Positions 4,664 through 33,745 of a DNA stretch of 64,000 bases are shown in pieces; positions within the stretch are counted from its first letter, which is position 1, and each line of letters starts with the position of its first letter. The position numbers and the translations under genes are program-made. The stretch covers positions 6,446,849-6,510,848 of the forward strand of contig CM082583.2 in the NCBI GenBank assembly GCA_040954595.2, written 5' to 3'. Source of the stretch: Balanoglossus misakiensis (taxonomy: Eukaryota > Animalia > Hemichordata). Below the pieces are notes generated by a model, which saw nothing but the letters and a program-made list of their open reading frames with translations, was not told the DNA's origin and made no database searches.

Positions 4664-5399
4664 GGGAGCATTCGTTTTTTACAGGGAGGGGGGGGGGCCG
4701 GTGGAATTTGAGTCGCCGACTAAATGTAAAAGGCAACCCCCCCCTGGAAATTACTTTTCTAAAATGTGACCCCCCCCCCCCCAAAAAAAAAAGTTTATCC
4801 ACCGGATTAAACTTATCATGGACACAGCGCTCCCATGAAAAGAATTTGAAACCGATGTTTCCCCTCATCAGTGGGTAGTAAAACTTAACATTGTTTTTAT
4901 TTTTAAGTATTTGTATTCTGTGTTGGGAGACATTGAAAACCGAGAATTGAAGGGGGTGGGTTTGGGAGGGGGTGTCCCCCTCCCACGTAAGAAAATTTTA
5001 TAAAATACAGAGCTCAAAGCTGCATTTTAATGAACACAGCAAAAGCAAATTAACGTCGCCGCTCAAAGTTATCATGGGGTGGGGGCAAGTCCCCTGACCT
5101 GGGACACTAGATAAACCAGTCAATGATTGAAAGGTGTTGATGAATGGAGGGGGTGGGTGTGGGAGGGGGTGTCCCCCTCCCACATTAGAAAATTTTGTAA
5201 AATAAAGGACGCGAAACTGCATTTTTGTGGACTCAAAATAAATATTTAGCCGTCAAAGTTTTCAAGTCCCCCCCTTTCAGTCCCTATATAATAATCCCTT
5301 GATTATAAAATTTGTCCCCCCCTAAAAACTGCTTTGTAAAAGTAAACCCCCCCCTGATTTCCACCGGCCCCCCCCTCCCTGTAAAAAACGAATGCTCCC
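4664..5399. mobile_element. Non-autonomous DNA transposon (MITE), PIF/Harbinger-like, 736 bp
   Basis: ~41-bp TIRs: GGGAGCATTCGTTTTTTACAGGGAGGGG..GCCGGTGGAA from 4664 and TTCCACCGGCCCC..CTCCCTGTAAAAAACGAATGCTCCC ending at 5399. TAA flanks both sides (4661-4663, 5400-5402) as a 3-bp TSD. No coding capacity. Confidence 0.85.
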
Positions 5400-8300: not shown

Positions 8301-11300
8301 GCCTACATTAAGCACACCGTTTCCTACAATCGTTCAGATGCCGGTTGTAGACAAACACGTTTTTAAATGAATAAATTCTCCGCTGATCCAAACCAAACGT
8401 AATATTCTGACAAACACCCGCGAACAAAGGCTTTTTAATTCAATCAGTAGGTCCGTCTGGAGGAGTTTATATTTAATGTGAATTGGATGGAAACTACAAA
8501 CAGAATTCCAGAAAAGATCAGTTGCAGCGTATCAAAATTAATTTGTCAGGTATAGCCTTGCAACTATCACAATATTATGGTGTTTTTCAGTAGCTAGGAG
8601 TCCCTTTTTTAAATTCATAAAATATTTTCACTGAATACCTGAAGGTATTTTGAATACTTGTTTGTACCCTTATCTCCTAATCAATCCCTTCAGCATCGTG
8701 ATTAATTCTGTTCCGTCATATTCCGCTTCTTTCGTTTACACAAAGTACCGAGAAAAGACGGTTTTAATTTACTTTTAACCGTCCGTGTTCGACATAAGGC
8801 CACGGAAATTAATGAAAACTTCGCCGTTCCGGTTCAATCACCCGCATTCGCAGAGACACCATAGGAGGCACGCTGACTGTGTACTCTACAAAAGCCGTAT
8901 CCGACTAAGTAAATCAGTTAATTCGTATTCATTTGGGACAGTGTTTCCACGTTTTACATTATCACGGAATTCCATACGTTTCTCTAGAGCCTTCCTTTCG
9001 ACTCAATTGCAGACTATCCACCAAGGAGCAGCAGCGTGTTCTTAGTATATAGTGCTGAGAGTAGTTAAGAAGCCATGGGCATGCGTGCATATTGACTGCG
9101 AAGGCAGATTTGGATTGGAAAGGTTCAATTCATTATACGAAAATGATGATAATGCAAAGACTGTCTCTTGTCGATTACGGACTTCTAATTATATTGATAC
9201 AATCAGTTGAACACGGCTATATCCTACTGTAATTTCAATGACGAAATACATGATAAATGTCACAATTAATTTGAGGTCATTTCACCAAAATAGACCAAAC
9301 AAAACGGCTCCCCTAAAATAGCAATGCAAGTTAAAATGAAAAGCAAGAACAATTTCAATATGGCATTAGTTTTTCACTTTTGCAATTTGCGTCAGTAGAC
9401 TAGACATTCCCGATATTTCTTCTTACGTCCTCTCCCAAGACACAAATCCGTTCCATGTAAATTTTTGAGATTAATTTTGACCGTCTGAAGGAAATCATCT
9501 GGGGAACCCTCTCTGCCAACATTGGTAATTATCTCGTTCCGCCATCGACAAAGTGAAGTACACTGCATGGCGCATTCAAATTGGATCTTCAGCCGAAATG
9601 GCAATCACACTTGCATGCGCATCGTCTGGAATCTTCTAACGCGACACAACGGGGGGAATCGAAGCACCTGGCTCGTCGCAGCCACCAAATCTCATCGGAC
9701 ATAGTTTGTGATTCACGTCCGCGAATTGAACTCTTGCCTGTGAAATCGGGCAGAGATATTAAAGGCTCCGTTGTCATCGAGAGTGAAGGCTGATAATTAT
9801 ACGAGGTTAACGAAGTGCCAACGTGGCTTCTTTTGAATATAACACGGTTTTGCTCGCTTAGCAAGATGGTTACAGTATCGACCTCCTTAATGATAACAGT
9901 TACTGTTTACCTGCATTGCATACTGAATGAACGATGTTGGTCGAGATTGAGTTCGAATTCTTGTGAAAGGGGATTTTGTGTTTCCAAAAAAGATTCAAAT
10001 CGCTTTCTGTATCAAGTAAATATGCCAAACCTCAATGCAATGCGTCTTGCGTGACATTGAAACAATTTGGATTGGCCTTATTTCATTTTCCACTCAAATG
10101 CGTACAGTGTGTGACTTTTGAATAACAGCTAACGCCTTCCACTTATTGAAAGTACATGCGCCCTTTTGGCAAACTTCGCCGTCGGTGCGCCAACAGGCAT
10201 TGCATCTTTCTTTCAAACGCCTTCAACCATAATATGCATTTATCTAGTGCAACATTTCAATGCCCTCCACAGTGTTCCTTTGCTATGACTTCAACAATAG
10301 TACATGTACCTCAATTGTCTATCATATCCATACATTTATCAACCGCCGCCCCCAACCTACCCCTCCACCAACCCACCCAAATAGTTGGATTAATGCAAGA
10401 ATGTTATGTTCTTCGCGATTGTACTTGAATAGACGAGATGGGAGTACAGAAATTGAGATGGAAAAAACGCTTTTGATATAATCATGGCAGAAACACAGGC
10501 TCATTAAAAATTTCCCCGCGACAAGAGCGTATAGTGTACATCAGCCCTCAAAACTAACGATGTAAAAACAAAGCACATTTTGTTATTAAGACTTCGCTGT
10601 GGGCAGGTTTAGGTTATCGACTCGAACCGAACGCGGGTGGTACCTTCGCGGGCAGTAATTGCAGTGCGCCTGGGTGACTTTGCAGATATTTTCCGTTACA
10701 AGTAAACCGTTCACATTACTATTCCCAAATTCGTTTTACGCTTATTTGACAACGGCGAGGTACTAAATGAAACAGAATAAATCATTCGAAATGTGAACGA
10801 GTGAACTGCTTATGGCTATAGTCTCACTTGATCTTTTATGGCATTGTCGTCAAGTTTGACAGTATCTCTATATCATACAGTTAAGGTTTTATGTCGGCGG
10901 AAATGTTCCGGAATCAGAGATTTCCATGCGACGGAACCTAATAACACCAACCTTCAAGCCTATACTGCTTGATTTACAATCTTGTTTGTTCCTACCATAC
11001 CATAATACCCTTTTATCGTCGAATCGTCTAGCATGTTTGCGGCGCGGGTGCATGACGATATTGACCCTTTGCGAAATGGGGTCATGAGCTAATATGAAAT
11101 GTTTTATAATAGCCTGTTTATGCCAAAACGGGACACGCACGTCAGCAATAGAGATGGATGTTATTATGGTATTTCCTTCACAGAAAATAACGATCAAAAT
11201 GGAGATAATTTTATGAAAAGAAACGTCTCAGCGTTTAGAATAGATTTTACTTTCGATTGTAGGTGTTGGGGTGTACATTTGATACCTTTTGATAGCGGGT

Positions 11301-11622
11301 GTTGATTACAATATCTGATAACCCGTGCAAATGGAAAAACTAATGACCATCATCCATTAGGGTCTGATTCCTGATTTAGTTACAACAGCGAGCTGAGAAC
11401 TCCTTAATGATTCTGTTGTTCACATTCAGGTAGCATAACAAACTTAAAAGGAGTGCACTTATAAATGTGACGCTTGGTGAAATGACTAACGTCAACAGCG
11501 GCATTAACATTAAAACATGGCAGTGTAGTCCAATCTCACCCTTGGGGATACACGTGCTTATCGTAAACCAAGTTCAACCTGAGTTGAGTTGTGTTTACGT
11601 AAGAGAAAACGCGGCGAATACA

Positions 11623-11636
11623 ATGTGACGTCACAT
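11623..11636. promoter_or_regulatory. Palindromic CRE-like site (ATGTGACGTCACAT) ~1.5 kb upstream of SSTR-like gene 1
   Basis: Perfect TGACGTCA octamer (11626-11633) inside a 14-bp palindrome. Function not demonstrated. Confidence 0.25.
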
Positions 11637-12499
11637 CCGGTGTGATATTGAATGGTAATGATGGTGTCTGTAATGGTAACAAATACAGTATCCTTTGGGA
11701 ATAATTTCGTATCAGGTGCAATGTTGTATCTGACCATGTACTATTAGTATAGTCGACCAATCTTTATAGATAGAATACTGTATCATCATATTATTATTCT
11801 CTCTTAAAACTAAGAAGTAGCATTGGGGACAATCATGCAAAAATTTGAATGAGAGTGCAAAGTTGTCTCAAATTTGAAATTCAAAATGGCGGCTAATGGA
11901 TTTGTTGAGCCCTTGCTCGTGGACAGAAATTAACTGGGGATTTTTTTTACAAAATCAAGACGATGAACACACTGTTATCCCCCCCAACGGATACACACAT
12001 TGACTTGAATATAGTAAAGAATCGGAAAGGTTCGAAGTTGCAGGGATATATAGCAATTATGTCTCTAAGCACGCCAATCATTGGTCATCAGATGGCTCTT
12101 CCATCCTGCCTGTGATGATTTACTGTGACCCCAGGTAATTATTGAATACCCACTTTGACTAAAAACAAGGCATTTGAAATGTATCAGAAACCGGCAAGCA
12201 CTGAAGCAACCATTTCGATGGCCCCATTGGGTTCGAGTTTCCCCGTTTAATAGACGGCTAATTAGTCTCGGTTGCTTCTAGAAGTTCGCCCTGTGAGCTA
12301 GAATATATAGTTAATTCCATCAGTGAGGTTCAGCCGAGAGTACCCACGGCATGCTGATTTAATATATAGCCGGTGCGCCACCGAGACTCCGTGATCGCAC
12401 TCGCAACGTTCTGAAATACAAAAGTTCAATTCAAGATTTACAGAAACGGAAGACGTGACATGGAAATCTTTGGCAGATGTCGTAAATTGCAATCCAGTT

Positions 12500-12860
12500 T
12501 TGTATATATAAGGCAGGCGACGGTCGTCACCCTACGACAAACACGTACGCATGTGCACAAAAAATGTTCTCATAAAATATTCAAATCCGCAATATGAGAG
12601 AAAGAGCGACAAAACACCATTCCATTTTGGACCTGTCACGATAGGCGGATCGGGAGAGGAGAATCGATCGATTCCGGTGTGACGTGCGTGTCCGTGGGTT
12701 ATTTACCTCCCTGACGTCATAAACGGTGGTTTGGATTCGACGCGTCCGTCGGCCACCGCGGTGTTTGTGTCAGCGTGCGTCCTTCGAGCGAGCCGACGGC
12801 AGCATTTGATGTTTAGGCAGTTGGTTTAAGCCAGTAACGTCACTCGCGACACCGGTATTA
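12500..12860 (+). promoter_or_regulatory. Candidate proximal promoter of SSTR-like gene 1 (TATA-like element, CpG-rich tract, CRE)
   Basis: TATATATAAGG at ~12503-12513, a CpG-dense stretch at ~12640-12860 and a perfect TGACGTCA at 12712-12719, all 300-650 bp upstream of the ATG. Confidence 0.3.
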
Positions 12861-13152
12861 CCAAATCACAGTGCGTTTGTAAACAAGGTTGGCGTACTTG
12901 GCAATAATATGAAAGTTGTTCAGCCGATGATTCAAACAGGCACTGACAGTTATATATGACTGACATAAAAACGCGATAGGTGGTAATGGATTCAATGGGC
13001 GTGCTTTGCTTTGTAGGCGACAGGTAGTGTCTTTCGTATATATCACACACACGGATATGATTCGGTACAAAACACTTGCGCGTATCTCTACCGATTTCAT
13101 ATGCTGACTCGCCGCAACCGTGCTTGACTACAGTGCAAGAGCAAAGACCACA

Positions 13153-14832
13153 ATGGCACACCTTAATACTACCGAGGCGTACGGAAACGATACCTCCGCG
13201 GAGAATTTCACCAATGCACTCGGTTCCACGACGTACAGGTTAACAGACGCGGTGTCTCCGACGACCGGCAACTTCAGTGTTTTGAATTTCACCGGGCTGC
13301 CGGACGATGTGACAACGTCGACACGGGGCAACTTTTCCATCACTTCCACGGTGACTGCACACCTGGCCGATGCGATGGACAATGTCACGTTTGCTCCGGA
13401 TCCAGAAAACACTACCGACATCCCGTTTCTACCAAGCTGGTGGCAAGAATGGCAATCCATGATCAGTACGATGCTTCCGGTTCTGTACGGATCCATATGC
13501 TTCCTTGGTATCGTGGGCAACCTGCTTGTCATACTGGTGTTGCTGCGTTACTCCAGCATGAAGACGTTGCCGAACGTTTACATCTTGAATCTGGCCCTGG
13601 CGGACTTTCTCTTCATGCTGACAATACCCTTCATAGCCTACCAGTTTGTGGCCGAGCGGTGGATATTTGGCTACGCCATGTGCAAATTCGTCATGTCCTT
13701 CGACGGGATGAACCAGTTCACGGGCGTGTTCCTGCTGACGGCGATGAGCTTGGATCGCTTCGCGGCCTTTTGCTATCCGATGAAGTCTCTGGGTATTCGA
13801 ACGCTGCGCAACACCAGATTCATCTGCTGCCTCATGTGGGCGTTGTCCGGAGCCGTCAGTCTGCCCCTCTGGATGTACTCGGAGACCTTCCCGCATCCGG
13901 CCGGCAACAACGAGACCATTTGCAGTCTAACCTGGACGAGAGGTGTGCGCAGGACTTTCATATTGTACGCCTTCATCCTCGGCTACGTTATCCCACTCTT
14001 GGTCATTTGCACGTGCTACACCTCCATCATACAAGTCATCCTGAGCAACAAACAGCCCGGCGAGAAGGGAATGAGTAAGAGGGGGTCGAAGAGGGTCGTC
14101 GTGCTGGTGATAGCGGCCGTGGTGACGTTTTCCGTGTGCTGGCTCCCTTTCTACGCGCTGCAGATTAAATTCACTTTCTTTCAAGGCACGTACACGAAGT
14201 CGGCTGCAGTTGCCAGCGTGATATCGATATGCCTAAGTTACGGCAACAGTGCCATCAACCCGATTGTTTACACCTTCGTCGGCAGACACTTCAAGGAGAG
14301 CATCGCCCGCCTGCTCTGCTGCAGAGGGGACGTGCACCGGAGATCGCAGAGCGTGTTCGCCTCCAGCACCCGCGGCAATCACATAGCGCGGCAGCCGACG
14401 AAAGGTCTTCCCAGGACAAAGTATATCAGCAGCCAGTCGTTTGAAGGGAACGCGGACGTGTTGACGTACGATAACAATGCATATCAGCTGAGTGTCAGCG
14501 ACACCTCGCCGAATCACACTGCGACCGATTGTCCGGAGAGCAAACCCGCCGTCCCCCGTGGCGAGACTGGGGCGGGGAGCAACCGTTTTAGGGGTGGCGA
14601 AAAACTCCACGACAGTCGAACGTCCCTTCCAAATGGAAACATCAACGAAGGGAAAACCGATACGACAAGTCCCCAAAAAGAAAAGAATCAGAGAACGTCT
14701 GTATGTGCATCGGAAATTATTTTGGACGAGGGAATGGACAACGTGGATCAGGCAATCGAGTTGTCGATCCCAATAGATAAAGATGACAACGTCGTCGACA
14801 TTGTTGAAACAGCTACCGTGTCTGAGGCATAG
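13153..14832 (+). CDS. SSTR: Somatostatin/allatostatin-C receptor-like class A GPCR (paralog 1), intronless, 559 aa from ATG 13153
   Basis: Seven TM segments with GN (TM1), NLALAD (TM2), DGMNQFT...DRF (TM3; the DGxNQFT pattern is typical of SSTRs), CWLPFY (TM6) and NSAINPIVY (TM7). MKTLPNVYILNLA in ICL1 resembles SSTR MKTxTNxYILNLA. N-terminus is rich in N-glycosylation sites. The ORF-track start at 13120 is GTG; the first ATG (acaATGG) is at 13153. Subtype not assignable. Confidence 0.92.
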   Translation: MAHLNTTEAYGNDTSAENFTNALGSTTYRLTDAVSPTTGNFSVLNFTGLPDDVTTSTRGNFSITSTVTAHLADAMDNVTFAPDPENTTDIPFLPSWWQEWQSMISTMLPVLYGSICFLGIVGNLLVILVLLRYSSMKTLPNVYILNLALADFLFMLTIPFIAYQFVAERWIFGYAMCKFVMSFDGMNQFTGVFLLTAMSLDRFAAFCYPMKSLGIRTLRNTRFICCLMWALSGAVSLPLWMYSETFPHPAGNNETICSLTWTRGVRRTFILYAFILGYVIPLLVICTCYTSIIQVILSNKQPGEKGMSKRGSKRVVVLVIAAVVTFSVCWLPFYALQIKFTFFQGTYTKSAAVASVISICLSYGNSAINPIVYTFVGRHFKESIARLLCCRGDVHRRSQSVFASSTRGNHIARQPTKGLPRTKYISSQSFEGNADVLTYDNNAYQLSVSDTSPNHTATDCPESKPAVPRGETGAGSNRFRGGEKLHDSRTSLPNGNINEGKTDTTSPQKEKNQRTSVCASEIILDEGMDNVDQAIELSIPIDKDDNVVDIVETATVSEA

Positions 14833-17800
14833 AACGAACAAAGAGAAGACTGCATTATATGGCATTTGTAATATATCCGATAAACATTTGGTACTTAAAC
14901 TAGTCTTCGTAACAGTATTAGCTACACTATCGACCAGAAGTATTAAGTACAAATTGAATACCACTTTTCATTATGGAATTTAAATAGTTATCGGTGTATA
15001 TTAATTCCACACAAAAAATATTTTCTATATTAATGTCCGAATTCTATGATGAGCTGGCACTCATCGATTTAAATAACCATTTCACGCGATTTACACTGTA
15101 TGGAAGATGAGTTACATGTACATGTGTTTACACGCTTTACGACAACTTCTTCATTTTAGACCCTTTTGCGTCACCTGATATACAGTACATGTACATTTGT
15201 AGATGTCGTTGCTGGAGAATTCTCCCTCCGCTGAGCGGAGTAACTGAGCTGATAACACGAGAAATATATCGCCAGCTGTGCCCTGCGGCTTGGCAATGAC
15301 TCTAAAATTGAGATAGGAGTCGGTGTATCCCGCCAATTTTCACGTGGAATAAAGATAGCGCGGTGTCATTTGTTCCGGAATGACGGATGGTGGTCAGTTT
15401 TCTGTATCGAGTGTGTGCTATACATGTATTTCTATTGTCTTTGATCGCGATTACTCGTGGAGGGTTGTGTGGGTAGACCACCGCATTGCGGTGTGGCGTC
15501 ATCGTCTTTCGGTTTCGTTCTATGATAGCTTGTTCTAGTGTCAGTACAAAGAGACAGATACGATTACTATCAAATGCCCACTTGAAAGAAGATCCGTCAA
15601 CCTATCTGACATCCGTGAATGTGAATCGGAGGTTGTTCATAATTTTCTGTCTTCCGTATACTATCACAGAAATGCATGTACAGTACACTTGTACATACCC
15701 CCCCGCACACACACCACATATAGACACCGTGACACACCGTTACAGAAGTACATATTGTATACGCCTGTGTGCAACCACACACGAGGGGAATAAATGGAAA
15801 CGCACGATGACAGCAGCGATATAATGTATTTTTGCTTCAAACTTCATCTCGCAACAGAGATTGGAGCGCTTTTAGGCGTGAAGTGAACTAGGTCATGTTA
15901 TTTTCTTGTCACCACCTTTTAAAACGACAGTTTATATCGACTATTGCAGTGTGACGAGCTGGTAATGACTTCTAATATCCAAACTTTTCACCCGGCCGCC
16001 ATTTTGCTTAATTCTAAATGGTTGTCACGGCAGTAATTGAAATACTCGAAAACAACATACATATTTGACTCTTTCAAGCACATGTTTGACCGGGAACTCA
16101 GCAAGCATTGCTTTCCATTTGCTGAAACGCGACGGTGAGTACTCGCCAGTATTATACTGGTCGATACTGAGGAATGTAATTGTTTTAACGGTGTCCAGAC
16201 GGTATTTCAGCTACACGCGGGAATCCTTTCCGGCACCGCGCCAGTTTAAATGAAACTCACTCAAATGGCATTATGCGTATGGTCGAGAGCTAAGAGACAA
16301 CGTTCCAGAAATCGTCGATTTGGAGGTGATAATCAGCGGCTGCATGTTTCAAAGCTGCCGACGCCATGGCCACTTATAGTATAGTCAGGCGCCCTCAAAC
16401 GTGAATTTTGTAACGTCAACAAGTATCACGAGATGAATAGGCCTATGGTACGTCAAATTACGATCCACCGAATAGATTTTTATCGCCGTTCTGTTCTATA
16501 GCGAAAACTACTCCCTGGGAAAGAATCTTAGAATCAATAAAGGTAATCTTGCAAGAGTCAAAGGGAATCCCGGATTTGTTATCAAATAAATGAATATTGT
16601 AGTCTTAAAGAAACACGAAGTTAAATAATATTTCATTGTCTTATCACGTGATATAAGAGTAATTATTAGTGACTCTGACGAAGTACAGCCTTCATTTCAT
16701 GACGTAGGATCTGTTCGCTGTCACCCCGAAGGTCAAATATAGACGATACGCAACTGCTTCAAGTTACTTTAGCGCTGTCAAATATCGTAAATCGAAACAA
16801 ACCCCATTCTAAAATATCGCATGGCCGATCTTCTGTTTGACCCCCCGTCTACACAGATTCAAATGCCACGGTTTGTTCCCATCACCGCGAATTCCTCACC
16901 ACAGCACTTATCATATCGTATAACACCTTAAAGTAATGTTTAAAGGTGTACACCGTTTCAAAAAACACGCAAAACACGTTTTAATGGCGCTTAAACCGTC
17001 ACCAATGAAACTTCATTTCGCCACTCCCTTTTAAGAACCAAGGATTCAATTCTGGTCGCCATGTTACATCTTAAAAGTCTTTTTTAGAGTCACTATGTTT
17101 TTTATAGAGACGCGTTGAATATTATATTCCAATTCTTTTATTGATTTGCGGAAAACATAACCAAACTTATATAATACTAATACATAAGAGAAACGAGGCA
17201 CGATTAATCCCTTTTCCCTTGGATTAAAAGTTGTAATCGAAGCAATACATTATATTATATCAGGTTTGCATTCCATTGAAAAGAGAAAAACATTGCGGCG
17301 TTGCTTTCTTCACCCATTGCTGTTCGTAACGCTCTTTGCTTTTCACCGTCCAACTGGTTTAGTGACTTAGCGCCGAGGTAGAATACCGGAGGGTCTACAT
17401 AAGTAACTCAGGCTTTTGCTAATTGTTTGAATCAGTATATATGTACGTGCCTTATTCAAAGTCTCTGCTGGGACCCTCACTGACCTATAGTTTCAAGGAA
17501 TTCACCTCGGGCGCAGAGCTTCGTGGAAGCCGTCTAATTTGACCGTTTTGCAGACTTCCGTCTCTGCGATAACCAACACACTCGCCATTGGGAGTGTGTT
17601 AATTACCAAAACTTCTGTTTCCAGTCAATACAGGGTTTTCCCCATCTCTATAATCGTCCAGTTTTGCATTGTGGTAAACACTTTTTTCGGGGAAATGAAC
17701 AAGACAACGGAGTTCATATAAATAACAAAAATACTAGGCATTAGCAAAAAGCCACTTTTGTTATTTGTACAGCACTTTATCAAATTTCATGTTGCACAAG

Positions 17801-18914
17801 ATACGGTGCATCACATCGTTTGTCGTCTTTTACCGGTGCTGTAGGAAGTGTTGGTTCGAGTCCAATCAGTTTCATATTAAGTAAAAATCGTTACTAAGTA
17901 TTGTTTAGGAATTATAATGCAAAGAAAGGTACAGGTGCACTGTAAAGCAAACGCCCGTCATTGATCATACGAACCATTGCCATTTAATCACAGACAGCAG
18001 AAGTTTCTATAGTTTAAGCTTAGCGAGATTCGTACAAATTTCAAACGTTGGTAAACCCTATTAAGATAGGCTTCCGTCAGAGATCGTGTTTAAACAATGA
18101 ATTTGAATTTTGCACTGACAATTACGCTGGGAGTTCTCACGACGCAAGCAGTTGTTAATGTTGTCCTTCACGCGGAGATTTGAATTCGTACCTGCATTTT
18201 GCTCAATCGCGGGAAGGCTAGATTGAAATACCAACCGCCGTGTGGCAGAATCTGTGGTAGACGTGATACACATTCAGCGCAACCATTTAATCAGACGAAA
18301 CCGGTGCAAGTCGAATTGGTAATTGGTTTTGTATTATCGTCTTTGACTTTTAGGTTAAAGATCAAAAGTTGTCTTTCATCAATTTGCCTACGCGCAGACA
18401 TTCTGTCATCACTGTGATTTACAATCATCTGAAGACACGCTTGCACTTTGAAGCAATATATATTTAACATACGTATACGTAATTCGTATCTCTGTCTCCT
18501 CCCAAGTGAATCATACGTGTTTACACTCGAGGACGAACGCAATGTATGCAGATGGGTTTTCAATAATGCCATTAAATATTTCATAGCTGACAATTCTGTG
18601 TGGAGCAATTTGTCTGTGCTATCATCGCTAGAAAAAGGCAAATAACTTCAATTGGATACCGCAAACACTGTCTACACGACTGTATATATAATTAGAAAGT
18701 AGGTATAGCCTACGCAGGTAGCGACGTGTTCGGTCAGAGGTCACCGTTCTCTTTGTTTGTCATGGCTAACGTTCCGTCTTCTCGTTAAATCGCAAGCGAG
18801 CAATTTGTAAATCAATAATGCGCATGTACAGAATTGATTGATGAGATCGTCTTGTTGCTCCGAAGAAGCTTTGGTTTCAACCATGCAAAATACGCAATTC
18901 AGTATTATTGTACA

Positions 18915-19007
18915 ACACTACACTACACCACACCGCATCACATCACACCACACAACACCACACCACACCACATCACAACACAATACACCCAACCAAGACA
19001 CACCACA
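18915..19007. repeat. Imperfect pentanucleotide tandem repeat (CACCA/CACAA/CATCA)n
   Basis: cactacactacaccacaccgcatcacatcacaccacacaacaccacaccacaccacatcacaacac... Confidence 0.8.
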
Positions 19008-23900: not shown

Positions 23901-26900
23901 TGGGGGTTTCAGCAAGGCATATAATGTCGCCTAGTCTTCATTACTAATCATCCATAGTCTATACAATGACTGTACAATTCACAGGCATAAAACATCACCC
24001 TCCTCTGCTCTCCAGAATCGGTTGCACACCGGACCTGTCGGGCAATCAGGAGATACACTTTCGAAAAAAAAACCTCCCCCGCTTTTCTCATGACTTTCAA
24101 ATGGATATGCTTCGGAGGTAGACAGTACCTTGTATTTTGATCCACTTCGTTTACGAGAAGGCAATCATGTAGCTTTGTGGAGGGAGAAAGAAACTACGAA
24201 GTGTATCTCGGGGCGATAGGTGTTCCACAATCAACATGAAAGCTCACTCTGGAGTGCGGGCCCTGTTTCTGATCATGCGAATCGTGATGTTCAGCCGACC
24301 AGTGTTACGGTTTAACGAATTTCACAGAGACGTAGTATACAGGCGAGACTGTCTCAAGAAGCTTTCATCGAAATTGTTAGCGGTGGGAGTTGTCGAGGAA
24401 GGTGCTTTGCGTAGTGTGTGCCGATGAGATTATATGCCTGTTCACTGCGAACGGGAATAGACGCGAGTTTTGCTCGCGAAGCCGTTTTAATACGACCGTA
24501 TCCACGTCGTTGTCGTGTATTCATAATACATATAATATTATCGGGAGGGCCTATCTGTGAAATGTTGTTTTTATACCACCAAAGTATCTTACTTTATGTT
24601 AGTAGTTTTTCCCTCTTAATATAGACATCACTTCGTACATTACCGACTCATATTCCTGTGACGTAAACAGCATTTACAAATGTATTTGAATGGTAACCAC
24701 CTTCAGAGAGGGTGATTTTGCTCGGAAAACCGTTTTCCCTATTCCTACAACTAATGAATGAATACCACACTTATCAATCACCTTTCTCCGAGCATGATCA
24801 CACGAGATCTGACACATAGTCACGTTGATAATTGGCTATATAGACTAATTAGGCAGATCGACGCTTGAAACAATATCGCCACACTGATTGAGTGATACAC
24901 CGGGTTCGCCCCAATCGGTGGCAAAGATATCCGCTTACAAAATATCGCGTTTCTCCCAATTTAGATGATATTATTAACCTTTCAAACTTGTTAACATCAA
25001 AGGCAAAATAAATACCTTAAACACTCCTCTAGATAAACATTACGAGCAATACCAGAGCATAAACGTTCTCAGCGTGCTTCAAACTAATGTAGCAGCTATG
25101 ACATGGAAAGGCGACAGGTGATTTCAGCACGAGACGGAACATTCATGATATTGAAAACTCACAGGCAAATTTATGATAGAAGATTCAAATAATAGTCATT
25201 TACTGGAAGGCGCCGTATGGTTTCCAAGTAAGTACATCGACACGAACATTTCCCTGTATCTTTAGCTGTTTGAAATGGGCACGAGTTCAAACGAACACCA
25301 ATCAATTCGACGAAAAGTTATCGAGGAAGCCGTGAGAACGCTCGAGAAAGCTTACGTTGACGGGGAATAAGATATTGGATTGGCAAGAAACTAATATAGG
25401 AATGATTGAAATCGTATCACTAGGATATTAGATAAATTAATGGTTAAGATATCCCTGAAATATAAGTGGTAAAGTTACGTATAGAAAATTCGGCACGTAC
25501 ATGTATCATGGGCCTGTCTGTATTCAAAACCAGTGTTTGCATCAAAATTGTAGCCATGTTAAATCGAGTATAGTCTTGGTAAAGGGTGGTCTTCTGATCC
25601 GCGTCCAAATTTAGTGTCCAATGACGATCACCAGCGGTTCGGTGATACAATTGTAACCGGTAAGTGTGCGATAGCATGCGTATTTGGTACATTTTAGGGA
25701 GACGTAGAAGTCCATTGCCAACTTTCAAGTGTGTATAATGTTTGATGGCATGCGCAATGCATGGGTACATTAAAAAAGCTCTTTCGTTTGGTAGGTTCTT
25801 GAGATCAAATATAATCGCTTACAGTGTCTAAAACTGAAAGTTTAAAATTAAGCTACGTACTATACAGCTGGGCCATGTGTGTTTCCTTTACTGATATTCA
25901 TAGATCTGTTTCAATGCAAACGTGAGGCAGAGGTTCCTTGCATGTTACGGTGATTTGCTTTATACAAGGAGCTATGCCTCCGGGATTCCCGGCATTCTCG
26001 CAATTTTTGCACGCTTTCTGTCTTCCGTTCTGCATTTCTATTGACCTTATGAACCACCAAAATTATTTTTATCTTCATGAGACTTCGACAGACTGACGTA
26101 TAGGCCTAATTGCGGCCTCCATTGTGGTTTCTATCTTCGCCTGTCCCTCTGCGATACTCAGGCAAAGAGTGTCACATAAGAATATTGGCGCTTCTCTGTT
26201 CTGCAGTAATCAAATGAAGTCGTCCTAGTTTGTGGCGTATGAATTTTGCATCCCCTTTGCTGCCTGGTGCCAGTTTTTTTCTCGCCGCGGTGAGTGTGAA
26301 TGTTTCCAATGCTCGCTTTTTCTTCTGAAGGTTTTCACATTAGGCACAGGAGATTCCGGATACGGATAATATACTGCGTGTGTTTCATGTGTCATGTTGG
26401 GCGCAGCTTGTCGTTTCATATTTTGGGCAAAGCATCGCGAGGAAACGTAGCTGTGGATACGCAGTATCCATGCGGCGGTTGTGACGTGTGCAAACACATA
26501 GAGCGGTCACGCAACCTTTATACGTTGTTTAATTTTTTTGCGCCGGTGGTGACGGCTTGATCCCAGAAGGGTAATTTTGAGTAGGGGTTAGCAGCCTGAA
26601 ACTCCACCCACTCCAAAACCAAAATTTTAGAATTGGTTTGCCCGCTTCTAAATCTCAGGTTTTACGATTTCACGTCAAAATATGCAGCAGAAGAAACTGA
26701 TTCCGCGTTTTGGAGTTAGACATCCCAGCTGATACCGGGTAATTCAACACGAATGAAAGCGATATGGCATATCACGTATACATTGTATGTACATGCATAC
26801 ACCATTGCATCTATGCGTCCATAGCTATTTAAAGTGCCTTTTCCAGTAGCTGACGAACCTACAAATGTATTAGTTTATCCATTCATGCAAATGTAGATGG

Positions 26901-28109
26901 AGAATATGCCTCGAATCTCTGTTACTTGAACATAAAAGAATAACAAAAGGGTTTCCATCCGTAAAATAGTATTGTTCACGTATATTAATACAGAGTAACA
27001 TATAACAAAAAAGCACAATTTTAACACAGTCTTCATTTAGTTTTGAAATAATAGAATGCAAGATCGTGTAAAGTGATGTAGTAGTTAGTGTACCATTCAA
27101 CCACAGTTGTCATTGTTCCTTACGTGTTGCATGCAACAGTGACTTACTTGAGTTTTCTATAAGAAATTTTCCACATTCTGTATTCCACTTCCAGCAGATG
27201 TTTTTATGATGGTTCGCATATGTTGATGTACTGTGCTGTGAAAACAATTCTGTCTGTAGGAGGTCAAGCATAAAAGAGGAATGGCACCATAAGGAGTATG
27301 CAAGGTCAAGTGTAGATGAGGAGTTATGTATGAATGTTTATTGGAGTTAAAAACATCATGCGTATATGCTTGTCATGTTGTACTTTTTTGAACTTCAACC
27401 AAATACCACCAGCCATACACAAGACGTTTACCTTTAACCCAACCAGAAGTAGCCATGAACAGACTAACTTGTTTGTAACACGTTCGGTCACGCGAAGATT
27501 AGCTTCTTTGGATGGAACCAGGTATTAATATCATCACGCAGTGGCTATACAGTTAGTTTGCACTTTGATTGAAATCAGACGTCATTTTGTGCTGTACTCG
27601 TTGCCGCTCCAGTGAAACTGTGCACCTGAGCGAGTTTGGGTGTCGAAGGTCAAGCGAGGAAGATTAGGGCAGAATCTGATAATCGTTTGACATGTATTGT
27701 GCACGAACAATGACCGTGGTCATTATTCCAGTCCAACGATCATGCGCAAGACTCCGATTTGCTGTGCTTTGCGTGTTGGCAAGACAGGTCGAAGACAAAA
27801 CGATTATAATCATCAGAGTGTGAGAGCTGGGGGCCATTTAGGTTTGGACACTCAGAGAAAAAAAAGATGAAAATCTTCTGTCGTATAAAAGCGTTTATTA
27901 CACCTCACGTATTATGTCGTATTCGTGATTGGCTGAGACGCGCTCACGTGACATAGAGAAAAAAGTGATATAACATGGCTAGAGTTGATAAAGCCCTGTC
28001 GCGTGCGCTGATATAGCCCGCTGGGTTGTTTTTGTGTTCTGCGCACCATTTCTGCGCATCAACAAATTGTCGTTCACAACAAACCCTTTCCCTTTAACGC
28101 ACCACCACT

Positions 28110-29411
28110 ATGGCTTCAAAACGACACGCTGATTTGACACCAGCTCAACTGGATGATATTTTACTTCAAATGGACAGCAAAAACACGAGAGTAGCGACCA
28201 ACAATGCAGTATCCGTTTTCCGAAATTATCTCAGTGCCAAGTACGGATATAGTCACCGGGAGATCGAGACCTTCACAGCGACGACTCTGGACGCAGCCCT
28301 GACTACATTCTACGCTGAAGTGCGAACTCAGAAAGGAGAACTATATACGAACAAGTCTCTTCAATCACTTCGATACGGCATTCAGCGATTTTTCAATCAG
28401 CCACCAATGCGCCGAAATTTCGATATAGTTGATGGCGATGAGTTTTCCAATAGCCGGAAGATGTTTAGTGCAGTTTGCAAGCGACTGAAAAGCCAGGGCA
28501 AAGGAAATGTTGTACACAAACCGGCCATACTCCCGGGCGATCTCGCTAAACTAGCCACCTACTTCAGTCGCTCGAATACCGACGCAACTTTACTTCTGCA
28601 CAAGGTATGGTTCGATATCATGTTGTATTTTTGTCGCCGTGGTAGAGAAGGGCAGCGTGACCTCCGTCCTGAAAACTTTCAGGTTAACACGGACGACCGT
28701 GGGAATAAGTACGTGATCCAAGTTGGGAGCGAGGTGACAAAAAACCACCAATATGATGACGATGGTGTGTCGGGCGGAATCATGTATGCCAACCCCACCA
28801 ATTTATCTCGGTGCCCCGTTCGTACCTACGAACTGTATATTTCGAAGATAAACCGTAAATGCGACGCACTATTTCAACGACCACGCGATAACTACAGTAG
28901 TGACGACGCGCTGTGGTACGAGAACAAACCACTCGGCAAAAATACATTATCGGCGATGATGGCCACTATATCTGCAGCAGCAGAATTAAGTCAACGCTAC
29001 ACAAATCATTGTATTCGTGCCACGTCCATCACACTTCTTAGCGAATCCGGCTTCAACAATAGGCACATCATGAGTGTGAGCCGCCATCGAAACGAAGGGA
29101 GCATCTCCTCCTATGTCAGGGATACGTCAATCCAGCAGAAGAAATTGATGGCAGAAACCCTTTCATCCGCAACAATGACACCATCTGCTGCTGACGAAAC
29201 TGGTGACCACGGTGCAGCCATCGCAACATCAAGCCCCCCACAACAAGCACATCGCTCACCACTTTCATCCATCATTTCGCAGCCTGCTTTCAGTGGTGTG
29301 GCCCAGCCAAATATTAATATACCCGCACCCAAATCAGCTGCAGCATCCCTGTTTGCAGGTGCAACGATCACAGGAGGAAATTTTAACATTTTTCTTGGAC
29401 AAAAACAATGA
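28110..29411 (+). CDS. Tyrosine recombinase (Crypton transposase; DUF3504-type, related to the ZMYM/QRICH1/KCTD1/KIAA1958 domain), 433 aa
   Basis: Candidate catalytic residues in order: R (YFCRRGRE), K (EVTKNHQ), HxxR (TNHCIRATSIT), H (SRHRN), Y (SISSYV). Also family motifs FYAEVRTQKGELY, CPVRTYELY, LFQRP, WYENKPLGKNTL and a C-terminal LFAGATITGGNFNIF tail. Uninterrupted frame with a good start context (actATGG). Confidence 0.9.
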   Translation: MASKRHADLTPAQLDDILLQMDSKNTRVATNNAVSVFRNYLSAKYGYSHREIETFTATTLDAALTTFYAEVRTQKGELYTNKSLQSLRYGIQRFFNQPPMRRNFDIVDGDEFSNSRKMFSAVCKRLKSQGKGNVVHKPAILPGDLAKLATYFSRSNTDATLLLHKVWFDIMLYFCRRGREGQRDLRPENFQVNTDDRGNKYVIQVGSEVTKNHQYDDDGVSGGIMYANPTNLSRCPVRTYELYISKINRKCDALFQRPRDNYSSDDALWYENKPLGKNTLSAMMATISAAAELSQRYTNHCIRATSITLLSESGFNNRHIMSVSRHRNEGSISSYVRDTSIQQKKLMAETLSSATMTPSAADETGDHGAAIATSSPPQQAHRSPLSSIISQPAFSGVAQPNINIPAPKSAAASLFAGATITGGNFNIFLGQKQ

Positions 29412-29560
29412 CAGTATTTATCTTTTGTGAAATATGCCCAGTACGTTTATTGTTGGTTTATTGTTGTTTCGTGTTTGGCCATTAAACTGTTGTGGTAATA
29501 TAAATCCTGACTGTGTGATATTGTCTTGTATGCTGTGTGAATGTTCGGTGTAATAAAATA

Positions 29561-29741
29561 AATAACACATGATAGCGAGGGCAATATCACAATTTGTTGC
29601 CTGCCCTCGGGCTGGTGACCATGACCGAAATATTGATGATGCCCTCGCCTTCGGCTCGGGCATCATCAATATTTCGGTCATGGTCACCAACCCTTGGGCA
29701 GGCAACAAATTGTGATATTGCCCTCGCTATCATGTGTTATT
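29561..29741. repeat. Long near-perfect palindrome: 84-bp arms, 13-nt centre TCGCCTTCGGCTC
   Basis: Left arm 29561-29644 is the reverse complement of right arm 29658-29741, with 3 mismatches clustered at ~29607-29612 / ~29690-29695. Confidence 0.95.
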
Positions 29742-32227
29742 ATTTAAATATTCTCCCGGCGAGAGACAGTTATCGCCAGCTAGATCCTGAACTCCCAGCC
29801 TCTATACCATGCATAGAGTCATTGAGCTCATGGGTCGTCATCATTGATTCGACTGTTCATCAATATTACGAAATACCAATGTTGCATGCTTTGTATTTTA
29901 TATGAAAATTTGTTCATCAGAAATATGTAATCAACGGAACATTGCATCCAATTTACTGAATCATTGTGTCATGCTGTTTCGATATGCAGTGATCATATCT
30001 TCCCCCTGCGGCGTATCACACAATTTCAAGCATTTAAATACGTGGCAACAGTCAACCCATCCATCGATGTCAGTCTGAATACCTTCGGATGATATCAGTT
30101 TTCTCCGCTTTTTGCATACCACGGTTCTGTGATCGCGTCCAAGGGACATCACTTTAATGTTAGGGGTTTCGTAAACCGTACCGTTCAAGTTTGACGGATA
30201 CTAGAACGGCCGCGTATTGGCTCATCGCCCCAGTCTCGCCCGTTTGGACGGCATTATACTTTATTTCTCGCAAGCCCCCAGAGCACTTGGCAGAAAGGTT
30301 TGCGCTGGTGGATTGTTAAGGGGTGTATTATGTGAAGAATATCGTGTAACAGCTGGGCTGAACTTTGAAGGCAAGGGTTACAGCAGGTTATCACAGCATC
30401 AATGATCGGCTCGTTTGTGGTTGTCATATAGTTAAGTACTTGAAGATCACAAGTTTATCATAGCACAGTTAGTCTACAAAGTGAAATGATCTTCATTAAA
30501 GGATTCTAGGACAGTTACCCCGGGTTATTGCTGTTACTGCAAGTTGCATGTCATGACACGTCGACATAACTTGAACGACTCGCTCATGAAATCACCTGAT
30601 CCGAAATGGCAACACCAGAACTATTCCGCACGCAGAACTTTATTACTGAACACATACATGTAGTGTGATAGTACATCGAAATAACTGTGTACATCGTGTT
30701 TGTTACTTCACAAAGATAATTTCAAAGAAATTAACGTTTGCGCTTACTTCTACTGGCAAATAACAACCCAGTATACACCGTCTCCATAAGACTGACACCA
30801 TTGAAATGTTCAAGACAGAGATACACTTTTAATGCTTAAAGAAAACCGTTACATAGGTCATGTTGTGTTGAACAGGGAAAAAATTAGTCATCGCTGTAAC
30901 TACGCTTAGTTCCATCAAGACGCACCAAAGCTTTTTGTTCAGTTTTATTTTTTCAAATCACAATTCTTGCCCATCATTTCCAAGTTGTAAAGATTTCATC
31001 TGGACATGAGATTGATTTCATAAGCTTAAAACATTTCCATACTTTCTTTAATCCGCTTTGGACTATAGTGTAAGTTGCAGCCACCGCGTCGCCAACGAGC
31101 CACCGTTAGTAATTTCACTTTTGATATGTACCAGTAATCGTCATAGCGTTGCTTTGGCGAAACACCGTTATTAGAGGCCCACCAACAAGAATATCCCACG
31201 GTTACTATTTGCAAACGTTAATCCGTTCGCCGGGGATGTTTGGGCCTTACTATAATCTGGCAGCATAGCAAATGGCGACGGAGGAACGTTTGACAGGTGG
31301 TTGGTTGGTAACAGTATAAAACGCAGTTGCCATTGCTGATATAACTGCATGCGTTACTTAACTGAACCACTCCCAACTCGCACCGTGTTCCAAATCAAAG
31401 ATCTGGCCTGATGAAGAACGATGGCGCGAGTTTTATATAATGTGATTTATTACTTTGAGCTTATTTGACTTGGTATCATTCTCGTCTAAAGCACGATCAG
31501 ATGGCCTGTGCGAAACAATGAGCCATCGGCGGTGTACTTGTCCGAAACGAGGCAAGCGGTAAATTGGTGCCGTGGCGTTTACAGTGCGTTGCTAATGTCG
31601 TTATTTTTATTCAGTGCACAAATAGTCACCTCAGATTCACGACGAGCGAATACATCAATAGCTAACTACTCCGAGAAGAAATGTTGAATAAAGAAGAAAA
31701 CATTAATTCATCAATACCGCCATAATGCAACACAGAAAAATCAACGTGAAACCGGAAGAAAACTTCGTGCGTACCTTTCTTGCAGACTTCAGTAAACTCA
31801 GAATTTCTTTAAAAGGGAATACACTTTCTCTGCTATAATCGATTTTTTAGCAACTTTTGACATGTTGGAACGTTTGCACTACAGTTACTAAAACAGATAT
31901 AATTGTATCGTCTCACGTTTTACTATAGAAGGGACAATCGACTTGTATTTTACGGACTTCGAACCCACACTAATACCGCACAAATTCACGTAGCACTTAA
32001 CGCATTTCAACGGAAGCGTTGAAGAGCTAATGTATGCCAGTGCTCCGTGTAACATTGTTTAAGCCACTATAGAAATAATCTCGTTACGGCTAATTGACTT
32101 CAAAGCCTGTCTTAGACAACATATGTATGCAAGATAATGCTATAAAGGTAATTGGGGGCGTGAAATTATTTCCATATAACATGAAAGTTAGATGTCTGTA
32201 GAGCATACACCGATAAAGGTTATAGAG

Positions 32228-33745
32228 TTAGCACTCTGCCGGGTTGGCCGAGAATTCGCGCAGCGGAACGCCACCGTCTGTGTCACCTGGGAATACCTGC
32301 GGCGCTGCTGTGTCTGTCTCTTCGGGATATTTACGTGTGAATTTCATACTCTCGTCACTTTGCTGGTCGCTTCCCTTCGCGCCGGGTAAACCAAGCCTGT
32401 GATTTGGCTCGGAGGGTTTCGCTAATGAATTCTCTTGTGGCTGTTGAAAGGCGCGATTATCATACGCCGCCACGTCGGCAGTGTTCGATGCTGATTCGGA
32501 GCCGGAGGTGTAGTACCTGCTGTTTTGCCGCTCGCTTCTCGCCAGCCTTTGACTTACATTAGTTTGGTGAGTGCTCGATGCGTACATGCTCCTCCTCCGT
32601 TTGCCTCCTCTGCAGAGAAACAGGCGGATGACGTTCTCTTTAAAGTTCCTGCCGACGAAGGTGTATATTAGTGGATTAATTGCACTATTTCCGTAACTCA
32701 AGCAAATGCCGACGTAATGGGCCACTGTACCCGCAAATGAGATCTCCCCGGGTTCGGCGAAAAATGTGTAGTACAGCTGAGTGGCGTAGAATGGGAGCCA
32801 GCATGTGGCGAATATAATAACCGCGGTTATGATCAGAATGGCCACCCTTCTGGAACTCTTTTTGACGCCGCCCCTCTCACCAGGCTGCTTGTTCGTCAAG
32901 ACGAGACGAAGAATGGAGAAGTAGCAGACGCTGATCACAAGAAGCGGCAGCGCGTAGCCGACGGCGAATGCGTACGCCACGAAGGCCCGGTACACACTCC
33001 GCGGCCAAGTGAGAGTGCAGCCAATCTCCCCGGTATATTCGTGCTGAAATGTTTCCGAGTATATCCAGAGGGGCAGGCAGACCAGCGTGGACATGGCCCA
33101 CATCAGTATACAGACCGCGCGCGTGTTGCGCAGAATCCTGAACCTGAGAGACTTGATGGGGTGGATGAAAGCGAGATACCTGTCCAAGCTCATGGCAGTG
33201 AGAAGGAAAACCCCGGTGAATTGGTTCATGCCGTCAAAGGACAGCACGAACTTGCACAGGGGGGAACCGAAGATCCATTTGTGCGTGGTAAACTGATACG
33301 CCAAGAAGGGTATGGTCAGCATGAAGAGGAAGTCCGCGATGGCAAGGTTCAGGATGTACACGTTCGGGAGGGTCTTCATGTTCGAGTACTGCGTGATTAC
33401 CAAAATGACCAGCAGGTTACCCACGAGGCCACAAAGGCACGTCAGACCGTAGAAGACCGGCACCGCGACAGTGATGACGGCGAAAAAGTCTTGCCACCAA
33501 GCAGGGAAAGGAGAGGTGCCACCGGCGTCCGTTGTGTTGCTTGCCGGCGACGTTTCGTTTAAAGTCGACGAGACATTCCAAAGACGCGCCGAGAAGTTGA
33601 ATAATTTAGCTGTCGTGTCCGCCACGGACGTCATCGTGGTGGAAACTTCTGCATGGCACTGTGAAGCCAGCCTCTCCAAACTGGTATCATTTCCGAAGAA
33701 GTCGGTTGCATTTGAGGCAGCACACGCTAACAGGCTCTCAGTCAT
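32228..33745 (-). CDS. SSTR: Somatostatin/allatostatin-C receptor-like class A GPCR (paralog 2), intronless, 505 aa
   Basis: Seven TM segments: YSNMKTLPNVYILNLAIADFLFMLTIPF, CKFVLSFDGMNQFTGVFLLTAMSLDRY, CWLPFY, YGNSAINPLIY. TM1-TM3 and TM7 are nearly identical to paralog 1. Start context accATG. Confidence 0.92.
   Translation of the reverse strand: MTESLLACAASNATDFFGNDTSLERLASQCHAEVSTTMTSVADTTAKLFNFSARLWNVSSTLNETSPASNTTDAGGTSPFPAWWQDFFAVITVAVPVFYGLTCLCGLVGNLLVILVITQYSNMKTLPNVYILNLAIADFLFMLTIPFLAYQFTTHKWIFGSPLCKFVLSFDGMNQFTGVFLLTAMSLDRYLAFIHPIKSLRFRILRNTRAVCILMWAMSTLVCLPLWIYSETFQHEYTGEIGCTLTWPRSVYRAFVAYAFAVGYALPLLVISVCYFSILRLVLTNKQPGERGGVKKSSRRVAILIITAVIIFATCWLPFYATQLYYTFFAEPGEISFAGTVAHYVGICLSYGNSAINPLIYTFVGRNFKENVIRLFLCRGGKRRRSMYASSTHQTNVSQRLARSERQNSRYYTSGSESASNTADVAAYDNRAFQQPQENSLAKPSEPNHRLGLPGAKGSDQQSDESMKFTRKYPEETDTAAPQVFPGDTDGGVPLREFSANPAEC

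What the first reader, a model, noticed from the sequence alone, without database searches (positions are those of the whole stretch)
29561..29741. 181-bp hairpin 3' of the recombinase, with a GCC-GAA-GGC apex and repeated GCCCTCG motifs
Seen: 84-bp arms with only 3 mismatches. The centre TCGCCTTCGGCTC contains GCC-TTC-GGC (GCC-GAA-GGC on the minus strand). The motif GCCCTCG/CGAGGGC recurs at ~29576, ~29603, ~29641 and ~29720. The only mismatches fall in small sub-palindromes (GCCC-TC-GGGC versus CCC-TT-GGG). Known: C(GAA)G triloops are exceptionally stable DNA mini-hairpins; integron integrases recombine folded ssDNA attC hairpins; protelomerases, which are YR relatives, resolve palindromes into hairpin ends. 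Inference: this is a functional cruciform or ssDNA substrate (origin, recombination or hairpin-resolution site) rather than a random inverted duplication.
Basis: partly seen in the sequence, partly recalled or inferred. Interest (0 to 1): 0.75.

Follow-up and report, generated by a model that had tools for sequence, protein, structure and literature searches.

The report
Crypton transposon end folds one strand
The hairpin is the right-hand end of a 1.85-kb recombinase-driven jumping gene (Crypton) in an animal genome, and its strand-biased G·A mismatches and built-in complement of the joined ends suggest the element likely moves as a folded single DNA strand, a route known from bacteria but untested for these elements.

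Summary
The hairpin is real: 29561-29741, 89-bp arms, five mismatches. It is the 3' end of a CryptonA-type DNA transposon (about 27896-29752) with an intact tyrosine recombinase. A contig lacking the element joins its flanks, and both ends are far more abundant than the gene.

Related recombinases show the same cap (minus-strand GA/GA plus GNA or GNNA loop) on unrelated arms: 11 of 40 families, 26 hits downstream versus 0 upstream. Just before the stem lies an inverted copy of the element's left end (5 of 5 families with sharp ends and a cap). Joined ends would therefore extend the hairpin across the junction with a 2-nt bulge (5 of 5).

Best reading (0.55): the folded minus strand is the recombination substrate, as for integron attC or CTX phage. 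No circle or cleavage was observed. One clade lacks the cap, and one half-cap has opposite polarity.

I did not find this architecture in nine literature searches; Repbase and Dfam notes could not be searched. This scan has already reported it on other DNA (eight notes).

The parts
27896..29752 (+). Whole CryptonA-type element, counted from the first to the second copy of the 4-bp overlap TATT (about 1.85 kb)
   Evidence: X1 record 1 joins 27899 to 29763 with 8 letters between that resemble 29753-29760. Loose ends of other copies lie at 27895 and at 29747-29751. Summed depth rises sharply over both ends.
27894..27904 (+). Left end: 4-nt core (27894-27897) plus the first bases of the left arm; exact inverted match to 29547-29557
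27986..28019 (+). Two copies (27986, 28009) of an 11-nt motif that also occurs four times in the hairpin (29579, 29634, 29658, 29713); candidate recombinase-binding repeats (inferred)
   Evidence: the pattern was chosen by eye and has no chance control
28110..29411 (+). Single-exon 433-aa tyrosine recombinase (DUF3504 / Phage_integrase) with R176-R177, K211, H300-x-x-R303, H326 and Y335 present
   Evidence: Pfam; alignment; model pLDDT 81.6 matches QRICH1 and Cre in PDB; nearest named protein 79% identical, Ptychodera flava
29547..29560 (+). Internal complementary region: inverted copy of the left end (29547-29557) abutting the hairpin base
   Evidence: (score 10, shuffle p 0.023); same placement in families F3, F10, F19, F26
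29561..29741 (-). Terminal hairpin, 89-bp arms; on the minus strand all five mismatches are purine-purine or G·T
29645..29657 (-). Conserved cap: tandem GA/GA, 3-bp GC stem, GAA triloop (loop 29650-29652)
29607..29695 (-). Inner 2x2 loop (29607-29608 opposite 29694-29695; AA/GA on the minus strand) and G·T wobble (29612/29690)
29742..29752 (+). Right end beyond the stem, with the 4-nt core at 29747-29750 and the TATT overlap at 29749-29752

Best explanation
The hairpin is the 3' terminus of a CryptonA-type DNA transposon, and it likely serves as a folded single-stranded recombination site for the element's own tyrosine recombinase.

Shown: the element's limits, an empty site, an intact recombinase ORF, many shorter high-copy relatives, a cap and inner loops conserved on one strand, and an inverted copy of the left end at the stem base.

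Inferred steps. (1) The minus (template) strand folds when exposed by replication or supercoiling; the GNA loop and CGAG/CGAG sheared-pair blocks favour and mark that strand. (2) The internal complement pairs with the left end while the stem base holds the right end, so both ends lie side by side on one splint and the recombinase joins them into a single-stranded circle. (3) In the circle the hairpin runs through the junction, giving a duplex core with a 2-nt bulge. (4) This site exchanges one strand with a short A/T-rich target (A or T, A or T, T, A), and host replication completes the insertion.
For: Terminus. Empty-site contig. In F10, five contigs 99.5-99.9% identical over about 1793 bp end sharply just after the hairpin; two of them share a left flank, so some contigs may be chimeric.

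Linkage. A letter-blind cap search gives 26 hits in 55,002 nt downstream of the YR and 0 in 56,417 nt upstream, in 11 of 40 families; 10 of the 20 families with at least 1 kb of downstream flank have it. A stricter motif or a fold adds F5, F7 and a variant in F16. Cap-bearing families are scattered over the YR tree (quick tree only).

Strand bias. In 12 hairpins there are 79 pyrimidine-pyrimidine versus 9 purine-purine mismatches on the sense strand. Beyond the cap, 11 of 24 two-base loops are TC/TC and 0 are GA/GA (counted). The loop reads GAA, GCA, GTA or GTTA on the minus strand in 11 of those 12 hairpins (ATA in one). This fits the DNA GNA loop and CGAG block described by NMR (PMC10085684 passages).

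Internal complement. 8 of 13 left boundaries tested have a significant inverted copy downstream (p 0.003-0.023). In all 5 families with both a sharp end and a cap it ends 74-94 nt before the loop.

Bulge. The modelled junction is 2 nt longer than the complement in 5 of 5 families.

Precedent. attC and CTX phage use folded single strands with one strand exchange (PMC4792948 passages).
Against: No circle junction or go-back joint appeared in the three runs laid, and nothing here tests binding or cleavage.

Standard DNA energies barely separate the strands (-103.4 versus -105.4 kcal/mol; about 0-5 kcal/mol in 12 hairpins), so the strand preference rests on non-canonical pairs the program does not model.

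Half of the families with long flanks (10 of 20) have no cap. F2 has a long end hairpin with a different apex. F17 has a plain 12-bp inverted match and no hairpin in 609 nt.

L026, the closest relative by identity, has a homologous complement and left arm, but the truncated half-cap after it has the opposite polarity (one case). One contig joins a TC-type inner loop to a GA-type cap (table 5c); this may be a chimera through the 32-bp perfect stem.

5 of 13 left boundaries gave no inverted match (F2, F4, F5, F6, F13); they may not be true ends, but I did not prove that. Families are related by descent (F3, F19 and F26 have similar ends; two of the 12 hairpins have near-identical arms), so counts overstate independence. 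Core positions were set by eye.

The exact 21-nt cap also occurs in 93 prokaryotic loci without long arms, and none of 25 neighbouring proteins scanned gave a clear YR hit, so the cap alone is not a YR signature.
Confidence: 0.55

Rival explanations
1. Classical double-stranded circle, with the palindrome extruding as a cruciform. The cap nucleates extrusion in supercoiled DNA and helps assemble the synapse, but both strands are exchanged as in Cre or Tn916-type elements.
For: This is the published working model for Cryptons (PMC3212892 Background passage; PMC13565253 passage). The protein model is Cre-like. The 4-bp overlap at both ends and a perfect 4-bp target match for F3 in an F25-like sequence fit ordinary crossover.
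Against: It does not explain why an inverted copy of the joined ends sits at the stem base with a constant 2-nt offset, nor the strand-biased loops deep in the arms.
Confidence: 0.22
2. The hairpin is a replication or resolution structure: a self-priming end for second-strand synthesis or rolling-hairpin copying, or a protelomerase-like site, which would also keep the arms symmetrical.
For: Arms stay complementary while their sequences diverge between families. L026 and one contig hint at an inverted cap. Telomere resolvases share the YR fold (PMC4792948 passage).
Against: Such copying should give both cap orientations, yet 21 of 21 downstream caps by the strict motif have one polarity. The reversed cap in L030 belongs to a whole reversed element (read by eye). 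The element has ordinary flanks and an empty site.
Confidence: 0.12
3. The palindrome is only a symmetrical array of double-stranded recombinase-binding sites, or a by-product of the element inserting into or copying its own junction; folding is incidental.
For: An 11-nt motif is shared by the left end and both arms. The internal complement can be read as a subterminal inverted repeat, and F17 has just such a 12-bp match with no hairpin seen. Cryptons insert into one another's ends.
Against: It gives no reason for a fixed GNA loop, or for C-TC-G facing C-TC-G at a fixed distance of 23-25 pairs from the loop in most families.
Confidence: 0.08
4. The structure works in RNA (3' end of the transcript, or a microRNA-like hairpin).
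For: It lies 150 nt after the stop codon. Weak microRNA-model matches exist (best 29.8 bits against a cut-off of 80).
Against: The transcribed-sense strand carries the pyrimidine mismatches. Loop variants TGC, TAC and TAAC exclude a conserved UUCG tetraloop. No Rfam family reaches its threshold.
Confidence: 0.03

Closest known systems
CryptonA DNA transposons (DUF3504 tyrosine recombinase; Kojima and Jurka 2011, PMC3212892; fungal Glomhopper, PMC13465315)
   Same: One YR ORF with DUF3504, no reverse transcriptase, about 1.2-2.3 kb in the paper's supplement 1, abundant non-autonomous derivatives, present in hemichordates, short overlap instead of a true target duplication.
   Different: Those papers report no terminal repeats in animal Cryptons and contain no 'hairpin' passage. 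Here the ends are sharp and carry a long capped hairpin, an internal complement of the left end and a 4-nt core.
Integron attC sites and IntI; CTX phage attP with XerC (PMC4792948)
   Same: Imperfect palindrome with conserved structure rather than sequence, strand-biased unpaired bases, tiny homology at the crossover, tyrosine recombinase.
   Different: Eukaryotic self-mobile element; stem about 90 bp with tandem G·A blocks; the site is completed only when the two ends join; no cassette array. Single-strand use is shown for attC and only inferred here.
DIRS retrotransposons (internal complementary region; PMC8969392 passage)
   Same: An internal stretch near the 3' end is complementary to the start of the left end and to the end of the right end; YR integrase.
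   Different: No reverse transcriptase or RNase H, and no long inverted terminal repeats; the complement here is continuous with a terminal hairpin.
Tn916/Tn1549 conjugative transposon integrases
   Same: YR, circular intermediate, A/T-rich targets, unequal letters at the two cores (recalled); weak sequence and fold matches.
   Different: Double-stranded circle and no terminal hairpin (recalled).
Helitron and IS200/IS605 single-strand transposons
   Same: Subterminal hairpin close to the 3' end; single-strand transposition.
   Different: They use HUH nucleases and short hairpins; this element encodes a YR only.

Membership tests
CryptonA | Single ORF with a DUF3504-type tyrosine recombinase and no RT, DDE or GCR1_C domain | tested here: met
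   one long ORF; Pfam DUF3504, Phage_integrase and weak QRICH1 only
CryptonA | R-H-R-Y catalytic residues intact (element rather than domesticated ZMYM/KCTD1/QRICH1 gene) | tested here: met
   R176/R177, H300, R303, H326, Y335
CryptonA | No terminal inverted repeats or true target duplication; at most a 4-6 bp direct overlap | tested here: met
   TATT at both ends and once in the empty site; the inverted copy of the left end is internal, not terminal
CryptonA | Interspersed, mobile, with non-autonomous derivatives | tested here: met
   Empty site, a contig skipping 27927-29729, many loose ends, and end depth far above flank and gene depth; depth is not a copy number
CryptonA | Clusters with named Repbase CryptonA recombinases in a tree | not testable with these tools
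   No Repbase sequences were available; the tree holds only unnamed loci
Integron attC/IntI system | Recombined as one folded strand with a single strand exchange | not testable with these tools
   Only the sequence signature was tested
Integron attC/IntI system | IntI-type integrase with I2 insertion, attI site and cassette array | tested here: not met
   Protein is DUF3504-type and the window holds one hairpin, no array; an I2-equivalent segment was not looked for
DIRS retrotransposon | Reverse transcriptase/RNase H and inverted terminal repeats | tested here: not met
DIRS retrotransposon | Internal region complementary to both ends | tested here: met
Protelomerase target / rolling-hairpin terminus | Both orientations of the palindrome centre occur; hairpin-ended linear form | tested here: inconclusive
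   21 of 21 downstream caps have one polarity; two weak contrary cases (L026; one contig); short-read contigs cannot phase the centre
Helitron / IS200-IS605 | HUH (Rep or Y1) transposase | tested here: not met

The most novel reading that the evidence does not exclude
Animal CryptonA transposons are a eukaryotic counterpart of integron cassettes. A Cre-like enzyme reads a DNA structure (GNA cap, spaced sheared G·A blocks, 2-nt bulge) instead of a duplex sequence, peels one strand into a circle whose joined ends complete their own att site, and inserts it with one strand exchange at almost any short A/T-rich TA site. This locus offers an intact enzyme, both exact ends and an empty target for testing it.
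Probability: 0.45. Interest if true: 0.85.

Novelty: new variant of a known kind. Interest (0 to 1): 0.62.

Why it matters
How Cryptons move has not been shown experimentally (PMC13565253 passage), and animal Cryptons were described as having no terminal repeats. Yet they left relics in the human genome, gave rise to ZMYM, KCTD1 and QRICH1 genes, and still produce polymorphic insertions in oysters. The end structure gives exact substrates and four mutable features (cap, GA loops, internal complement, bulge), which makes the mechanism directly testable. If single-strand use holds, it would be a tyrosine recombinase acting on folded DNA in animals, and a compact 433-aa insertion system with very little target requirement. 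The structure is also a simple way to find and delimit these elements.

Tried and rejected
No whole genome is held for this window, so copies could not be counted or aligned.

The protein-based scan of viral contigs found no relative (0 of 47 candidate stretches).

The 21-nt cap in viral and prokaryotic collections gave 2 and 93 loci. Only 1 of these 95 (L146, an 877-nt contig, probably animal DNA in a bin; inferred) has long arms. Of 25 neighbouring proteins scanned, none gave a clear YR hit and 2 are serine recombinases. A prokaryotic YR link is therefore rejected.

One search used stem lengths guessed by eye and missed the F10 complement; one search repeated the test from the left ends and is the one relied on.

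The covariation score (0.81, 0 of 500 shuffles) is not used as evidence, because any set of centred palindromes would give it; only the conserved unpaired columns are informative. F20 is misaligned by one column there.

No Rfam family reached its threshold. No RNA holder was listed, which says nothing about expression. No circle junction was seen in contigs, which cannot show absence.

Whether the empty contig is the state before insertion or after excision could not be decided; it differs from the window at 8 of 185 and 6 of 173 flank letters. The careful tree did not finish; the quick tree was used. No earlier notes lie near this locus.

Full report
Observation. The palindrome is as described: 29561-29741, loop 29650-29652, 84 outer positions with 3 mismatches, plus a 13-nt centre holding a 2x2 loop and a 3-bp stem. 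It is the only such repeat scoring 14 or more in 64 kb. Read on the minus strand, the centre is a tandem GA/GA with a GAA triloop, the inner loop is AA/GA, and the last mismatch is G·T. On the plus strand the same places are pyrimidine-pyrimidine or C·A.

Context. The window is animal DNA with intronless GPCR genes. The ORF at 28110-29411 matches DUF3504 and Phage_integrase, keeps the catalytic residues and folds like Cre and QRICH1. Its nearest named relative is a Ptychodera flava protein at 79%, so the host is probably a hemichordate or near kin (inference). This is the CryptonA pattern of Kojima and Jurka (PMC3212892: abstract, sections 5, 8, 9, passages and supplement 1 seen).

Limits of the element. 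Three runs of one sample were laid on 26500-31500. One contig (X1 record 1) joins 27899 to 29763, lacking everything between except 8 letters that resemble 29753-29760. TATT stands at both ends of the missing part and once in the empty form. Other contigs leave the window sequence at 27895 and at 29747-29751. In X1, summed depth is about 50-95 on the flanks, 130-200 on the gene and 5,000-19,000 on the ends; this is no copy number, but it shows many short relatives. One contig skips 27927-29729. The hairpin therefore ends about 10 bases from the right end of a 1.85-kb element. The runs may be the window's own source.

Other families. An alignment-based scan of metagenome contigs confirmed 364 stretches and returned the best 80, which fall into 40 families at 80% DNA identity. 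A search for the shape 'stem, 2x2 loop, 3-4 bp, 3-4 nt loop' with no letters specified gave 26 hits within 1 kb downstream of the YR (55,002 nt) and none upstream (56,417 nt), in 11 of 40 families. Of the 20 families with at least 1 kb of flank, 10 have it. Most hits read TC...TC on the sense strand; a few off-motif hits are included in the 26. A stricter motif or a fold adds F5, F7 and a variant in F16. Many other contigs stop at or before the place where the hairpin would be. Gapped inverted repeats of 45 bits or more lie downstream in 16 and upstream in 5 of 41 families, the window's included. Cap-bearing families are spread over the YR tree (13 changes for 14 rows, no clustering; quick tree), which fits an old feature with patchy recovery.

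Strand bias. In 12 hairpins (the window's, one per family, and a second hairpin in L038 that resembles L050) there are 79 pyrimidine-pyrimidine against 9 purine-purine mismatches on the sense strand. Beyond the cap, 11 of 24 two-base loops are TC/TC and none is GA/GA; a loop lies 23-25 pairs from the apex in all but the window's hairpin. Random decay would put these classes equally on both strands. On the minus strand they are CGAG facing CGAG, a block of tandem sheared G·A pairs shown by NMR, and the GNA triloop is a stable DNA loop (PMC10085684, passages). The folding program does not model these pairs and separates the strands by only 0-5 kcal/mol. Relatedness inflates the counts.

Self-complement of the ends. 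Left ends were defined where copies with unlike flanks converge. For 13 boundaries the first 22 bases were searched, inverted, against up to 1 kb downstream of the YR. Eight matched better than shuffles (p 0.003-0.023) and five did not (F2, F4, F5, F6, F13). In all five families with a sharp end and a cap, the match ends 74-94 nt before the loop, at the stem base. Joining right end to left end in a script extends the stem across the junction, and the junction strand is 2 nt longer than its complement in 5 of 5 families (cores placed by eye; three of the five families have similar ends). Cores read as A/T, A/T, T, A in most copies. F3 flanks match a sequence in an F25-like end with a 4-bp overlap.

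Mechanism. These features are what a folded single-strand substrate would need. The closest working precedents are attC and CTX phage, where a folded strand with unpaired bases undergoes one strand exchange and replication finishes the job (PMC4792948, passages). The complement of both ends recalls the DIRS internal complementary region (PMC8969392, passages), but there is no reverse transcriptase. I put the single-strand model at 0.55, a duplex circle with cruciform help at 0.22, hairpin-primed copying or resolution at 0.12, binding-site array or by-product at 0.08, and RNA at 0.03.

Results against. No circle was seen. F2 has an end hairpin with another apex. F17 has a plain inverted match and no hairpin in the available flank. 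The window's nearest tree neighbours L002 and L014 show no cap, and L001 has too little flank. L026 has the homologous complement and left arm but a truncated half-cap of opposite polarity. One contig mixes polarities and may be a chimera. The bare cap is common in prokaryotes without long arms or a clear YR neighbour.

Novelty. The element is a member of a known class. Nine searches and passages of PMC3212892, PMC13465315, PMC13565253, PMC5753468, PMC8969392, PMC4455052, PMC8869645 and preprint 10.64898/2026.02.10.705023 gave no description of this end structure or of single-strand transposition for Cryptons. Repbase Reports, Dfam notes, Goodwin 2003 and subscription reviews were not searchable. 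I recall, without a call, that curators noted self-complementary regions in the Crypton-derived Eulor repeats, so the bare hairpin may be known. Supplements 2-6 of PMC3212892 and those of the other papers were not read.

Earlier notes of this scan. Eight notes report the same architecture on other DNA, one in this genome. My reading was entered with that look-up, before its answer, and the notes are not independent support. This locus adds an intact enzyme, both ends, an empty site and the constant 2-nt offset.

Noticed in passing
L088/L089, L102/L103, L152 (Patescibacteria bins): The exact 21-nt cap sits in an inverted repeat at both ends of a unit of about 1.7 kb encoding a large serine recombinase (Resolvase + Recombinase + zinc ribbon for L089 and L152; both copies seen in L088/L089 and L102/L103): possibly a serine-recombinase mobile element with folded ends.
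   Followed up: partly
L091, L104, L109, L130, L134, L141, L159 (one Acutalibacteraceae genome); L121, L129, L153, L158 (Sphaerisporangium); many actinobacterial bins: The same cap recurs as an intergenic REP-like repeat without long arms.
   Followed up: partly
L026:1370-1480: Homolog of the window's internal complement and left arm, followed by a truncated half-cap of opposite strand polarity.
   Followed up: partly
L005, L006, L030, L038: Crypton elements inserted in or beside the ends of other Crypton families, including a reversed end in L030 and two hairpins in a row in L038.
   Followed up: partly
window 27926-27956: A GATTGG (CCAAT-box-like) and a CACGTGAC (E-box-like) motif just inside the left end; GATTGG-like words occur at a similar place in F3, F10, F25, F26 and F31. 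Possible promoter; the labels are recalled.
   Followed up: no
window 13153-14832 (+) and 32228-33745 (-): Two related intronless rhodopsin-family GPCR genes facing each other, with the Crypton between them.
   Followed up: no
window 51836-59506: 7.7-kb array of CCAC/CCAT-type 4-mers with extreme strand skew, preceded by a short ATTC/TTCG repeat.
   Followed up: no
window 4663-4695 and 5368-5400: 33-bp perfect inverted repeats 672 nt apart, likely a MITE (I5).
   Followed up: no
L146:520-680: 877-nt contig in a Bacteroidetes bin carrying a long-armed hairpin with the same cap amid simple repeats; probably animal DNA in the bin (inferred).
   Followed up: partly
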